Assembly: GCA_039679545.1 (NCBI GenBank)
Contig: JBDKUT010000118.1
Span: forward strand, 1 to 9,305
Direction: 5' to 3'
DNA length: 9,305 nucleotides
Source of the DNA: Thermotogota bacterium
Lineage (GTDB): Bacteria > Bipolaricaulota > Bipolaricaulia > UBA7950 > UBA9294
Each line of letters opens with the position of its first letter. Position 1 is the stretch's first letter. Position numbers: made by a program. Shown piece by piece: positions 3,001 to 9,000 of the stretch.

Positions 3001-6000
3001 CTCGACAAAGTCCGAGCCGCTGATCGAGAAGAACGGAACCTTGGCCTCACCGGCGATGGCCTTGGCCAACAGCGTCTTCCCCGTTCCCGGAGCCCCCACA
3101 AGGAGGATCCCTTTCGGAATCTCGGCGCCGAGCTTCGAGAAGCGGCGCTGGTCTTTCAGGTACTCGACGATCTCCTGGACTTCTTCCTTGACCTCATCGA
3201 CCCCCGCGACGTCGGCGAATGTCGTTTGGGTCATGTCCGGGTTGACGAGCTTCGCCTTCGACTGACCGAACGTCAGCGCCCCCGCGCCGGTCTGGGTTCG
3301 CCGCATGATGTAGATCCAGACCGCAATCAAGAGCACGATGGGGAGAAGAGAGACGAGGATCGACACGAGCAGGTTGTTGCCCGACGGCGCCGCATACTCC
3401 ACGTCTTCGATGTACTGGTCCAGGAAGGCGGCATACGCAACCGAGTCTTGGGGAAGGCGGACCGTGATTTCCGTGCCGTCTTTCAGGACCGCCACGGCCT
3501 GCGACGAGTCCTCCTTCACATCCACCGAGGCGATCAGACCCTGCTCCGCCTTGCTGCGGAACTCCGAGTACGCGACCGCCTGCCGGTCGTCGCGCGGGCT
3601 GAGCCAGGTCTGGAGCGCGATCAGCGCGAGAATCACAACGATCGTGATGAACGCGATGTTCCGGAGGTTCCGGTTCCTCAAGTCCCGACTCGCATCCTTC
3701 TCCATGACCGACTCCTTGTCGCTTCGCCCCGATTGTAGCACCCGCCCGGAGGAGCGTCCAACGCTGTTCTGAACAGGGTTGCGTGCAGACTACTTCCGGA
3801 GGAGATACCTCCAGAACTGCAGATTGGGGAACGCACGCTCCGTCCCGGCAATCAGTCGGCGGATGTTGGCTCGGTGGGTGTACGTGATGAAGGCAGCGAG
3901 GATGAACGTCAGCGCGACGAACAAGGGCGGATACGGCGGCTCTCCAGGATGGAAGAGGGTGACGAGCGGCACGGCCCACGCGCCGAGGAGCGATCCGAGC
4001 GACACCCATCCGGATGCGACGACCGCGACAGCAAAGACGCCGACTCCGATGGCCACGGGGATCGGAAGGAGTGCGACCAGCATGCCGGCCGCCGTGGCGA
4101 CCCCTTTGCCCCCTCGAAACCCGATATACATCGGGAAGACGTGCCCCACCACAGCGACGATCCCACAGAGCACCGCGACGGTGGGTGCGTCCACAGGCAT
4201 TGGACCGAGAGGGAACGGGATGCGCGGAACCACGACGGTCGCAACGATTCCCTTGGCCAGATCGGTAACGAGAACGGCGACACCCAGGCGCCATCCGAGC
4301 ACGCGCCACGCGTTCGCCGCACCCGCGTTGCCGCTCCCGTGTTGGCGCACGTCCAGGCCTCGGAAGACACGCCCGAACACGACCGACGAGGGGAACGCCC
4401 CGAGGAGATAAGCCACGACGAGAACCGCCGCCAGCGCCATACTTCCTTCCTCCTAGCTCCGGCCCACTTCGCGAGCGACGCTCGCCGCATCGAGAACCGC
4501 GATGGTGGCGCCCCCGGGCCCCGCGTGGCTTCCTAGGGCGGGCGCCGCGTCCGCTGTGAGCACGACGGCGGCGGGGAATTGTTCGTGGAGTGCAAGCTCG
4601 TAGGATTCAACGAGATCAGGAGCGTTCGAGTGGCTGATGGCGAAGATCGGGCAGTCCATGGAAGCCGCTCGTCTCGACACGAGGTCGAGAACGCGGCGGC
4701 GCGCAGAGCGGAGGCCAACGCGCTTGCCGGCCGAGGTCACTCGCCCTTCCCGCACGGTCAAGACGGGGAGAATCCTCAGCAAAGAAGCGATTCGCCCCTG
4801 CAGCGGAGAGACACGGCCACCTCGAACGAAGTAACGCACCGTGGGGACGTATACGTAGGTGTCGCTTGCTGCCGCCGAGGCCGCGGCTACTCGAGCACAA
4901 TCCTCGAGGGGAAGTTTCGCTTCGATCGCCTGCAGCGCAGCCCACACGACCAGTCCCTCCGCCGCCGATGCGGAACGGCTGTCCACGACCTGGATGGGTA
5001 CACCCGTCTCCGCGACGACTTGCCGGGCCGCAAGCTCCGCGCAGCTGTAGGTTCCGGAGACGCCAGCCGACAGATGCACGGAAAGAATCGCATCAAAACG
5101 GCTCGCAAGGTGGCGATACGTCGCCAGAAAGTCCGCCGGAGAAGGTTGCGAAGTAGTGGGAAAGGTCGGATCTACCTGAAGTCGCTCGTAGAACTGACGG
5201 GGGGTGATGTCGACACGATCGAGAAGGGTGTCGTCACCGAACGCCACGCGAAGCGGGATCACCTGCACGCGCCCGGCGGTGAGCATGGCCGTAGGCAAGT
5301 CACACACCGAGTCGGTCACGAGCGCCACGCCGGACCGAGGCTCGCACGGCTCACCAGGCGGAAGCGCCTGCCACATGTCGTCGACCTTTCGCCGCTCGAG
5401 GGTGCCGAACTCCTCAAGGGCTTCGAACACGAGGGCGGGTGCGTTCGAGTGGACATGTGCGTGGATCTCCTCGGCGGAGCCGGCCACGACCACCGAGTCT
5501 CCAAGATCGGCAAGCCTCTTCTGCACTAAGGCCCGATCCGCGTCCGACACAAGAACGACCGCCTCCGCACAGTAGCGGAAGTCGACAGGCTCTGATTCTA
5601 CCCTGCTTGAGAGGACGTCCGGCACGAGCGCCTCGTCCGAAGGCCCGACATCGCGGCGATCCTCGTGCCACAGATGGTCGCGGATCCCCTCCAGAAAACG
5701 GACGAATCCCAGTGCACCCGCATCGACGACGCCCGCCTTGCGAAGAACTGCGAGCTGATACTGTGTTTCAGCGAGCGAACGCCGGGCAACCTGCAGCCCT
5801 TCATCAAGCAAGACGCGAAAGTCGGGAACCCGGTTCTTGCAGCTCGCCAAGTGCTCCGCAACCGCTGTCATCACCGTGAGAATCGTGCCCTCTCGAGGCT
5901 GAGCGAGCGCCTCGCGGGCTCGGTCCGAAGCGTGTCGAACAGCCCGCGAGAAGCGCTCGACGGTCAGGTGTGCGCAGTCGGCCATCCCCTCTCGCAGACC

Positions 6001-9000
6001 CTGAAAGAACTGCGCAAGAATCACTCCGGAGTTGCCCTGCGCGCCGGACAGGGCGGACAACGCGATCGTCTTGCCGACGGCATCGAGGGAGGGAAGAGGT
6101 TGCCGAAGACCATCGACGACGGCCCGCATCGTGGCCGCAAGGTTCGTCCCCGTATCTCCGTCGGGAACCGGGAAGACGTTGATTCGGTTCAGCGCGTCGC
6201 GTGACGCGATGACCCGCTCGGCCCCCGCGATCACACACTGGCGTAGATGCTCCCGCGTCAGGACATGGGGAACCGCGGTATCGGAGTCAGACATCGTGGC
6301 GGGATGATACGGCACGCCGTCTCCGCGAACAAAAAGCGGGGCGGCCGACGTCGGCCGCCCCGAAGATCGCGCGTAGGAAACCTGCTAGGGAAGGATCGTA
6401 ACAGGGATCAGGATGGCCTTCCCCTCCCCGTAGACGACCCAGATCAGGTGCTCGCCCGGCTTCAGGCTCGCGGTGTCGATGGTCAGCCAGCAGACGCCGC
6501 CGACACTCCGCGTGGAGAAGGAGTACGTCGACGGAGACTCCGAGACGGCGCCACCTCCTCCGGCCACGTCCGCGTCGCTTGGATGAGTCACGCTGATCCA
6601 CGGCCACCCGAACTCACGCCGCTCCCGCGATGTGAGATCGAGACTCACCTCGACGGATCGCCCGCTGTGGATGCTGACGGGGGTGAGCTTCACCAGCGAC
6701 GACAAGAGCGCGATCGCCTGTGAGTTCCCCTTGTCCGACGTCGCGGAAAGCGGGACGCCGTTCGCGTCGAGTCCGTAGGTTAGGATGCCGACGTTGGTGT
6801 GCCAGTTCTCTGCCACGTCCGGGCCGAGCGCGTCGGTTCTCTCCATCGTCCCGAACGTCGCGGCGTCACCGGCCGGCCAGCGTCCGTCGTCCGATCGGAA
6901 TGCGTTCGCTGTGTCAACGACGGTTCCGGTCGCGTCCACGAGCTCAACCACGGCCCCGCCGTCCGGAAGTTCCATCGAGTACGGTTGGACGCTGTCGTAG
7001 ACGACGTCTGCGTCGACGTTGCTGACGGTCTCGTCGCTCAACCGCTCGAGCAGAAGGTAGCTTCCGTCGTCGTCCTGCGGCAGAGCGATGACCAGCCAAG
7101 AGAAGTCGTCCGTGTCTCGCTTGACGAACCGAACGTTTGGGCCCGCATCGACGGACGTGAGTGCGCAAGCCGAGGTTCCCGCGGCCTCGAGAGTCCCTGA
7201 GAGTGCGACCGTCTTCCACTCGTAGTCGCCCGGCTCGACGGGGCTCTTCTTGCGCCAGCGGAGGACCCAATCCGTCAAGTCGACCGGCGCGGACCCCACG
7301 TTCCGGAGCTCAATCCACTCGTCCGCCGGGTTCGCTTCCGTGCCCGCCCAGGCGATCTCGTTGATGATGACCTTGCCCGTGCAGGCGTCCGCCGAACCTC
7401 CTCCACCGCCCGGTCCTTCGATGATGTCGACGTCAACGGAGTCGCGGTTGTTGGATTCATCCGGGTCGACGAGATCGCTTCGCGTGACTTCCGCCTCGTT
7501 CGTGATCGTGAGTCCCGCCGTCCCGTCGTTCGGAACGACGGTGATCTGCAGGGTTGCCGACGCATACACAGCGAGCGACCCAACGACCCACACGCCGGAG
7601 TTCCGATCGTACGTTCCCCGTCCATCGTCCGACACGTACGTGATCCCGAGCGGCAGAACGTCGGTCAGCTCCACCCCCGTCGCGGCGTCCGGTCCGAGGT
7701 TCGTGACGGTAATCGTGTACACGAACTCCTCGTCTTCCATCGGCGTCGCGTTGCTGGTCGCCTTGTCGACCGCGAGGTCAGCGGCGACGACGTCAAGCAC
7801 GGCGTCATCGCGGTTGTTGGCGTCGTTCGGATCGAACGGAGAGGACTCGGCGATCTCGGCCACGTTCACGATGGTCCAACCCAGCGTTCCCGCCGCGACG
7901 GTCGCCGTGATGTGCAGCGTTCGAATCTCCCCCACCGCCAGAGCGCCGATTGTCCACAGGTTCGTACCGGTGCTGTAGGCGCCGGCGCCGTCGTCCGAGA
8001 CGTAAAGGAGTCCGATCGGAAGAGCGTCCGCGAGCGATGAACTCGTCGCATCGGACGGCCCAAGGTTCGTCACGGCGACGGTGTAGACGATGGTCTGTCC
8101 CTCGCCCGGCGTCGCGTCGTCGACGTCTTTCTGCACGACAAGGTCGGCCAGCGGCACCACGACGACCACATTGTCGTCGTCGTCTTCGTGGGAGGCCGTG
8201 GCGTTGGCGGGAACCGAGTCCGTGTCCGGCTCGCCGGCGCTCTCGACTTCGGCCGGGTTGTCGCGCTCGCCGCTCGGGAGGATCAGGGCGTTGATCTCGA
8301 GGGTCAGGCTTCCACCTGCCGCGAGATCGCCTACCGTCCACGTTCCGGTTGCGCCGTTGTAGGAGGTGCCCGTCGGCGCGTTGGCCGAGACGAACTGGAA
8401 TCCGCTGCCTAGGTTGTTCTGGACCACAACACCCGTCGCGTCTGCCGCGCCGGGCGCGTTCTCCAGCTGAATCGCCAGCACGACAACATCCCCAACGTTG
8501 GGTGTGCTGTTGCTCACGGTCTCAGTCAAGGAAAGGTCAATCAACGCGAGGAGCGGCACGGTGTGATCGTCGCTCGTCGGGTCGGTCTCGTCGCTGTCCG
8601 CGGTCGCCGTGTTCACCAGCGGGCCGGGGAGGTCTGACAACGCGACCGGGCCGTACGCCACGTTGATCGTGCTGCTGGCTCCGACGTTGAGAGTTCCAAT
8701 CGACTCATGGAGGCCGAGCATTGAGTCTACGACCGCTACGCCGTGCAGCGTGACGTTCCCGGTGTTGGTTACGACGATCTGGTACTCGACCATCCCTCCA
8801 ACCCTTACGGGCTCCGTGGTTCCGCTCTTCTCAATGGCGAGCCCGGGCGATTGCACGAACGTGACGGTCTCGTCGTCCGTGTCCGTAACGTTCGGGCCGC
8901 TCGGCGGCGTCCCCGTCGCCGTCGCTGTGTTGTGGATCGAGCCGGCGTCGACGTCGGCTTGCGTCACCACGTGCGTCGCTGTCCCCATCGTCGACGCGCT

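What a model noticed while it worked through the whole genome (the two positions that open the first line are those of the whole stretch)
4453..6315. Single-chain fatty-acid kinase: FakA kinase+linker domains fused to a FakB (DegV) fatty-acid-binding domain, next to pls [...]
g01515 (620 aa, minus strand) has the Dak2 kinase domain and the middle domain of FakA (res. 28-315). In place of FakA's C-terminal domain it has a complete DegV/FakB fatty-acid-binding domain (330-607). It is the only DegV protein of the genome and lies directly upstream of plsY (g01514), the acyltransferase that uses acyl-phosphate. It is predicted to be a one-polypeptide fatty-acid kinase feeding PlsY.
Evidence so far: Pfam Dak2 4e-37, FakA-like_M 8e-17 and DegV 9e-63 (HMM 2-277 of 280). 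TIGR00762 DegV matches full-length at 3.8e-70. Swiss-Prot FakA-type proteins (552 aa) align almost only to res. 28-314 (one reaches res. 345). DegV, Dak2 and FakA-like_M rows occur on no other gene, and PlsX (g01461) is also present. The junction (res. 246-432) lies in open frames of 561-757 aa in 9 of 36 other phylum genomes, all nine in family f3, and in none of the 5 sampled genomes of the own family. In S. aureus, the FakA N+linker fragment alone keeps kinase activity with FakB (PMC9136124, passage seen, call 125), which makes the architecture biochemically plausible.
(Added by a program. Inside this text positions count along the whole contig: contig position 1 is position 1 of the stretch shown here. 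"Call 12" and the like, gene names such as g00115 and contig names such as C1 are that model's own, and its searches are not shown. The text may have been shortened before it was handed on; [...] marks where a part breaks off. The agent that wrote the report below was given it as the finding of a first reader that could run no searches.)

Follow-up and report, generated by a model that had tools for sequence, protein, structure and literature searches.

The report
Single-chain fatty acid kinase beside plsY
One gene joins the ATP-using part of the bacterial fatty acid kinase to the fatty-acid-carrying protein that is normally separate, and it likely activates free fatty acids for the lipid-building enzyme encoded next to it; the design is real, but common across bacteria and already noted in print.

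Summary
Confirmed. One open frame carries Dak2, the FakA middle domain and a complete DegV/FakB domain, 12 nt upstream of the genome's only plsY. All 13 residues mapped from FakA and FakB are kept. The start is likely ATG 6294 (613 aa), not GTG 6315.

It is not rare. It is full-length in 13 of 24 sampled genomes of its family (3 of 5 of its genus), in 143 of the best 150 clusters at 50% identity, and in Listeria and Enterococcus. Dak2-DegV fusions are mentioned in print, and this scan noted the design 15 times on other DNA. My ten literature searches found no biochemical test.

Best reading (0.8): a one-chain fatty acid kinase making acyl-phosphate for PlsY/PlsX. It is an accessory scavenging route, since core FASII genes are present and relatives lack the gene.

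Added here: the arginine by which free FakB docks on FakA_C is mostly replaced in fused forms, and the fused kinases form one side of a deep split from canonical FakA. Lacking FakA_C, the protein could test the two competing Fak mechanisms. Interest is modest.

The parts
4453..6294 (-). Single-chain fatty acid kinase gene, likely 613 aa from ATG 6294 (open frame reaches GTG 6315, 620 aa; residue numbers in this report use the 620-aa frame)
5680..6171 (-). Dak2/FakA_N nucleotide-binding domain (res. 49-212); N46, D52, D54, T55, N95, D198 match S. aureus FakA N32, D38, D40, T41, N82, D185
   Evidence: fold match to FakA_N 7RM7/8VIP Z 34.6
5371..5580 (-). FakA middle domain (res. 246-315); C249, H287, H289 match S. 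aureus C240, H282, H284 (zinc site)
4495..5328 (-). Complete DegV/FakB fatty-acid-binding domain (res. 330-607); T388, S420, R501, H597 match FakB2 T61, S93, R170, H264/H266; docking arginine (R202/R205) position is V533
   Evidence: fold match to FakB/DegV Z 33-36
6304..6309 (-). TATCAT, a -10-like promoter hexamer 9 nt before ATG 6294; suggests a leaderless or near-leaderless transcript (inferred)
   Evidence: not reported by the consensus scan
6337..6362 (-). Terminator-like hairpin (11 G-C pairs plus T run) closing the upstream DUF11 gene
3790..4440 (-). plsY, acyl-phosphate:glycerol-3-phosphate acyltransferase; only copy in the genome; 12 nt downstream

Best explanation
The gene encodes one polypeptide with a FakA kinase domain, a FakA middle domain and a complete FakB-type domain, and it likely works as a single-chain fatty acid kinase that turns free fatty acid and ATP into acyl-phosphate for the PlsY encoded just downstream. 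Shown: the architecture, the kept residues, the folds of the kinase and carrier domains in a model, and the gene order. Inferred: (1) the DegV domain takes a fatty acid from the membrane and holds its carboxylate with T388, S420, H597 and R501; (2) the Dak2 domain binds Mg-ATP (N46, D52, D54, N95, D198) and phosphorylates the carboxylate while it is still in the carrier, with the zinc-bound middle domain as scaffold; (3) the covalent tether replaces the FakA_C docking domain, which would explain the loss of the docking arginine; (4) acyl-phosphate goes to PlsY, or through PlsX to acyl-ACP. The route is probably accessory (scavenging or recycling). Whether transfer is within one chain or across a dimer is open.
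For: All 13 mapped residues are in the query; all 13 are identical in 115 of 118 close homologues and 102 of 143 distant representatives, with D52, D54, D198, S420 and R501 in 143 of 143. Model pLDDT 94, pTM 0.92; its domains match FakA_N (Z 34.6) and FakB (Z 33-36) better than DhaL (25.9) or DhaK (about 17). plsY follows directly in 12 of 13 family loci; the 13th contig ends there. Four phylum genomes (two of them also carry the fusion) have a split fakA-plsY-fakB operon, so the Fak-PlsY link holds without fusion. S. aureus FakA_NL, lacking FakA_C, is active with a tenfold higher Km for FakB1 (PMC9136124, passage). The docking position is R or K in 109 of 109 stand-alone DegV (19 of 19 after dereplication at 60%), R in 24 of 143 distant fused proteins and 0 of 118 close ones. 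fabF, fabZ and carboxyltransferase matches, plsX with fabH/fabD-like neighbours, and plsC-family genes are present; 6 of 11 family genomes without the full gene keep DUF11-plsY-ftsH with nothing between.
Against: No assay of any member was found. One published model needs FakA_C to form the active site, and in that study FakA_N plus FakA_C reconstituted activity (PMC10848957, passage). The fourth zinc ligand of S. suis FakA (H226) has no counterpart: the query has no His in residues 220-246, against 106 of 143 distant representatives. The fusion is not always beside plsY: in family f7 and in Listeria it precedes a DUF1295 gene. The stand-alone DegV set is narrow and the loop around position 533 aligns with gaps.
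Confidence: 0.8

Rival explanations
1. It is an acyl kinase for a special or modified acyl chain (lipid remodelling), not a general scavenger, and PlsY is only one possible client.
For: Relatives sit with DUF1295 and DUF2177 in Listeria and with DUF1295 in family f7; such fusions occur near heliorhodopsin genes. FakB paralogues differ in chain selectivity.
Against: In this family the neighbour is the genome's housekeeping plsY in 12 of 13 loci, and no specialised lipid genes lie in the window.
Confidence: 0.1
2. The C-terminal domain acts like FakA_C, as a scaffold or docking site, and a separate carrier delivers the fatty acid.
For: FakA_C is structurally related to FakB; some fused DegV domains also score on the FakA-like_C profile. 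The docking arginine is lost. The genome is a 93.6% complete draft.
Against: The domain is full length, with the insertions that form the tunnel (HMM 2-277 of 280; 267-285 residues aligned to FakB structures). S420 and R501 are invariant in 143 of 143. No other DegV gene was found.
Confidence: 0.06
3. It is a dihydroxyacetone or other small-molecule kinase of the DhaL/DhaK type.
For: Dak2 is homologous to DhaL; weak Dha-kinase profile hits at 4e-11 to 2e-4; the DegV fold is related to DhaK (Z about 17).
Against: All those hits are far below cut-off. FakA_N and FakB match much better, the FakA middle domain is present, and the carboxylate-binding residues are kept.
Confidence: 0.03

Closest known systems
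Two-component fatty acid kinase FakA + FakB (S. aureus, S. suis, B. subtilis YloV/DegV; PDB 7W7H, 7RM7, 8VIP, 4X9X, 5UTO)
   Same: Kinase and middle domains, carrier domain, all 13 mapped catalytic, metal and substrate residues; link to PlsY.
   Different: One chain; no FakA_C; docking arginine replaced (V533); no His at the fourth zinc-ligand position; one fixed carrier instead of exchangeable FakB paralogues; domain arrangement of the model differs from 7W7H (TM 0.32-0.37, rmsd 27).
Dak2-DegV fusion proteins (noted in bioRxiv 2021.02.16.431466 citing Erni et al. 2006; Listeria lmo0590 'DAK2/DegV domain-containing protein', PMC3091722)
   Same: Same three-domain order. The L. innocua protein WP_207577344 (577 aa) aligns end to end at 31% and falls on the same side of the kinase-domain tree. 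That it is the lmo0590 orthologue is my inference from annotation, not checked by sequence.
   Different: Gene context (DUF2177/DUF1295 there, plsY-ftsH here). H597 is Ser in the Listeria and Enterococcus proteins.
Full FakA-FakB fusion of Fusobacterium vincentii (845 aa, NZ_CP084075.1)
   Same: Kinase and carrier in one chain; docking arginine also replaced (Phe).
   Different: Keeps FakA_C (Dak2-M-FakA_C-DegV); its kinase part groups with canonical FakA, so it is likely a separate fusion.

Membership tests
FakA (YloV/VfrB; TIGR03599, NF038248) | Dak2 domain with Mg-ATP residues N32, D38, D40, T41, N82, D185 | tested here: met
   N46, D52, D54, T55, N95, D198 by alignment to S. aureus FakA (roles)
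FakA (YloV/VfrB; TIGR03599, NF038248) | Middle domain with Cys-His-His zinc site | tested here: met
   C249, H287, H289; the fourth ligand His of S. suis has no counterpart
FakA (YloV/VfrB; TIGR03599, NF038248) | C-terminal FakA_C docking domain ending in Glu; score above the family cut-off | tested here: not met
   No PF13684 match; 266 of 396 and 153 of 975 bits. Not filed as FakA.
FakA (YloV/VfrB; TIGR03599, NF038248) | Homodimer through the middle domain | tested here: inconclusive
   See Tried and rejected
FakB/DegV (PF02645, TIGR00762) | Full DegV fold with tunnel-forming insertions | tested here: met
   HMM 2-277 of 280; Z 33-36 with 267-285 residues aligned
FakB/DegV (PF02645, TIGR00762) | Carboxylate residues Thr, Ser, His and catalytic Arg170/173 | tested here: met
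   T388, S420, H597, R501; counted by hand on the 4X9X alignment (roles)
FakB/DegV (PF02645, TIGR00762) | Docking Arg202/205 that binds FakA_C and membrane | tested here: not met
   V533; R in 0 of 118 close homologues. Basic residues flank it (K531, R532, R536).
Dak2-FakA_M-DegV single-chain proteins | Three domains in this order in one frame of about 580-640 aa, no FakA_C | tested here: met
Fatty acid kinase (activity) | ATP + fatty acid gives acyl-phosphate | not testable with these tools
   Needs an enzyme assay
Dihydroxyacetone kinase (DhaK/DhaL) | DhaK substrate domain; score above family cut-offs | tested here: not met
   Hits cover only res. 18-214, at 21-42 bits against cut-offs of 138-575; the C-terminal domain is DegV

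The most novel reading that the evidence does not exclude
Single-chain Dak2-M-DegV proteins are an old, separate lineage of fatty acid kinases spread across many phyla, and possibly the ancestral form: canonical FakA would then have arisen when the tethered carrier decayed into the docking domain FakA_C and free FakB paralogues took over delivery. If active alone, they show that phosphoryl transfer happens on the carrier-bound fatty acid and extend acyl-phosphate scavenging well beyond Gram-positive bacteria. The split from canonical FakA is supported (SH-aLRT 97), but the tree has no root, and FakA_C is no closer to fused than to free DegV.
Probability: 0.25. Interest if true: 0.6.

Novelty: new member of a known kind. 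Interest (0 to 1): 0.3.

Why it matters
The gene itself is one of many copies of a design already noted. Its value is as a tool. How FakA and FakB form the active site is stated as unresolved (PMC11617999, Discussion read): either FakA_N phosphorylates the fatty acid inside FakB, or FakB hands it to a FakA_N/FakA_C pocket. A natural protein without FakA_C, which models confidently as one chain, could separate these models and might be easier to crystallise in a closed state. It would also explain how many non-Firmicute lineages feed free fatty acids into PlsY.

Tried and rejected
Homodimer prediction of residues 18-325 gave no answer: score 0.00, controls not folded, no evidence either way. 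Mean-field coevolution on 397 proteins (effective depth 262, 541 columns) gave plausible within-domain pairs but no coherent between-domain signal; inconclusive. Testing whether FakA_C is closer to fused than to free DegV: mean excess score 3.7 versus 5.0, both near noise. A DegV-domain tree put 37 stand-alone rows in one clade, but that set is too narrow for inferring origin. Sequencing runs: no RNA holder listed; no reads were laid. The search for related loci on genome contigs returned only 3 near-identical loci. Cluster look-up of 10 distant representatives gave almost no names. The consensus promoter scan did not report the site before the gene. Rejected: assembly chimera (120 of 120 close homologues whole); recent horizontal gain in this genome (pairwise identities of the fusion track PlsY+FtsH, Spearman 0.69 over 12 genomes, pairs not independent; a C-terminal remnant survives in G013); a PlsY-DegV fusion in G035 (separate ORFs). 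Erni 2006 and Kinch 2005 were not held, so I did not see them. I vaguely recall a characterised FakA/FakB-like single protein in Dictyostelium; searches found nothing, so this is unverified, but 'untested' may be too strong. Supplements of the bioRxiv paper (its Fig. S10 on these fusions) were not seen.
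Full report
Observation. The minus-strand frame 6315-4453 is open for 620 codons. Pfam finds Dak2 at 49-212, FakA-like_M at 246-315 and a nearly complete DegV domain at 330-607. TIGR00762 covers the whole DegV part, while the FakA models cover only 25-315 and stay under their cut-offs. 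In the genome (93.6% complete) DegV and Dak2 occur once each, FakA-like_C was not found, and PlsX is present. The only plsY begins 12 nt after the stop, followed by ftsH, dxr and a SufT-like gene. The closest named relatives are Candidatus Bipolaricaulota.

Start codon. A terminator-like hairpin closes the upstream DUF11 gene at 6362-6337. TATCAT at 6309-6304 lies 9 nt before ATG 6294. A TAT[CG]AT hexamer stands about 6-10 nt before a start codon in 13 of 13 family loci examined (read by eye; G005 left out because its contig cuts the gene), against 0.035 sites per strand-kb in the genome. 61 of 118 close homologues start at this Met. The protein is therefore likely 613 aa, on a leaderless or near-leaderless message (inferred).

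Distribution. Of 24 other genomes of the family, 13 have the fusion full length (one cut by a contig end), including 3 of 5 of the genus; two more have partial matches. Family f7 has it in 3 of 3 (one in two contig-end pieces); it was not found with this query in f2 (0 of 4), f3, f4, f8 (0 of 1 each) or f5 (0 of 3), and 2 of 3 f6 genomes have canonical FakA instead. plsY follows in 12 of 13 family loci. Of the 11 family genomes without the full gene, 6 keep DUF11-plsY-ftsH with nothing between, 2 have another gene upstream, G013 keeps a remnant of residues 580-610, one contig ends at plsY, and in one the orthologous plsY was not found. Presence and absence are interleaved on a PlsY+FtsH tree, and fusion identities track that marker, which suggests vertical descent with repeated loss. 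Further out, 143 of the best 150 clusters at 50% identity cover all three domains. Named carriers include Atribacteria, Marinimicrobia, KSB1, Aminicenantes, Calditrichaeota, Acidobacteriota and Bacteroidales, Atlas clusters dominated by Gemmatimonadota and Pseudomonadota, and Listeria, Enterococcus raffinosus and Acetoanaerobium.

Anatomy. Against S. aureus FakA, N32, D38, D40, T41, N82, D185, C240, H282 and H284 map to N46, D52, D54, T55, N95, D198, C249, H287 and H289 (roles in PMC9136124, and PMC11617999). Against FakB2, T61, S93, R170 and the His map to T388, S420, R501 and H597 (hand count; roles in PMC10848957). All 13 are identical in 115 of 118 close and 102 of 143 distant homologues. 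The AlphaFold2 model has pLDDT 94 and pTM 0.92; so high a pTM implies a confident relative placement of the domains, but I could not inspect coordinates. The domains match FakA_N (Z 34.6) and FakB/DegV (Z 33-36) better than DhaL (25.9) or DhaK (about 17); the overall arrangement differs from FakA in 7W7H.

A signature of tethering. Free FakB docks on FakA_C through Arg202/205. That column is R or K in 109 of 109 stand-alone DegV proteins (19 of 19 after dereplication), R in 24 of 143 distant fused proteins and 0 of 118 close ones, where it is I, F, L or V. Five of five free FakBs from split operons keep R; six of six fused proteins from fetched loci have F or L. Caveats: the stand-alone set is narrow, kin are not independent, and the loop aligns with gaps. 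The same arginine helps FakB bind membranes, so uptake here would rely on flanking basic residues (inferred).

Lineage. On 263 columns of kinase plus middle domain, 30 single-chain rows and 12 FakA_C-bearing rows form two sides of one branch (SH-aLRT 97; one Mycoplasmopsis row left out as truncated; FastTree agrees on 68 rows). The single-chain rows were gathered by likeness to the query, and the tree is unrooted. An 845-aa Fusobacterium protein keeps FakA_C and adds DegV, and groups with canonical FakA, so fusion likely happened more than once.

Mechanism. Most likely (0.8) the DegV domain loads a fatty acid, the kinase domain phosphorylates it in place, and the acyl-phosphate goes to PlsY or, through PlsX, to acyl-ACP. 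FakA without FakA_C is active but has a tenfold higher Km for FakB1; a tether would offset that. The genome has fabF, fabZ, carboxyltransferase and plsC-family matches and a plsX cluster, and four AMP-binding-family genes whose substrates I did not check, so this is probably an accessory route. Against: one published model uses FakA_C in the active site, the fourth zinc ligand is missing, and some relatives sit with DUF1295 rather than plsY. All catalytic steps are inferred.

[quoted passage not shown] 2006) and occur near heliorhodopsin genes (passages). PMC3091722 lists lmo0590 as a hypothetical DAK2/DegV protein whose insertion mutant replicated 9.6-fold less in cells, with a possible polar effect (table passage). 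Seen as passages: PMC9136124, PMC10848957 (section 9 whole), PMC11617999 (Discussion whole), PMC13400652, and PMC12594616, PMC10146087, PMC12352028 (no natural fusion in the passages shown). Ten searches found no assay of a single-chain form; the library lacks most subscription papers. This scan holds 15 earlier notes on the same design in other genomes, 8 shown; they are unchecked leads, not support.

Verdict. A real gene and a sound functional guess, but a new member of a widespread, already noted architecture. It is not a FakA by membership (no FakA_C), yet it likely works like FakA plus FakB. Interest 0.3, mainly as a handle on the open question of the Fak active site.

Noticed in passing
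L066:865-3402 (Fusobacterium vincentii NZ_CP084075.1): 845-aa protein Dak2-M-FakA_C-DegV: a whole FakA fused to a FakB, a second and likely independent fusion; its docking arginine is also replaced.
   Followed up: partly
L022/L029 (G035), L023/L028 (G038), L026/L031 (G011), L030/L032 (G022): Split fakA-plsY-fakB operons in four phylum genomes; G011 and G022 carry this as well as the fusion, with a second plsY.
   Followed up: partly
L044:1361-1453 (G013): A 31-codon remnant of the fusion's C-terminus (55% identity) just upstream of plsY, the trace of a deletion.
   Followed up: partly
L019:3255-4034, L021:708-1490, L033:5746-6516: In family f7 and Listeria innocua the fusion is followed by a DUF1295 gene; in Listeria DUF2177 and a photolyase precede it, the trio reported around heliorhodopsins.
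   Followed up: no
window 6304-6309 and L006-L018, L036-L041: TAT[CG]AT hexamers a few bases before start codons suggest leaderless transcripts in this family; similar hexamers lie upstream of plsY in several genomes without the fusion.
   Followed up: partly
window 6385-9305 (minus): Large DUF11/DUF7507 repeat protein with a lamin-tail domain, running off the window edge; conserved upstream of the fusion or of plsY in many family genomes.
   Followed up: no
window 335-3741 (minus): ftsH, dxr and a SufT-like gene follow plsY; ftsH and dxr overlap by a few bases (true dxr start near 1861, not 2152), and a sigma-70-like site lies at 3760-3732.
   Followed up: no
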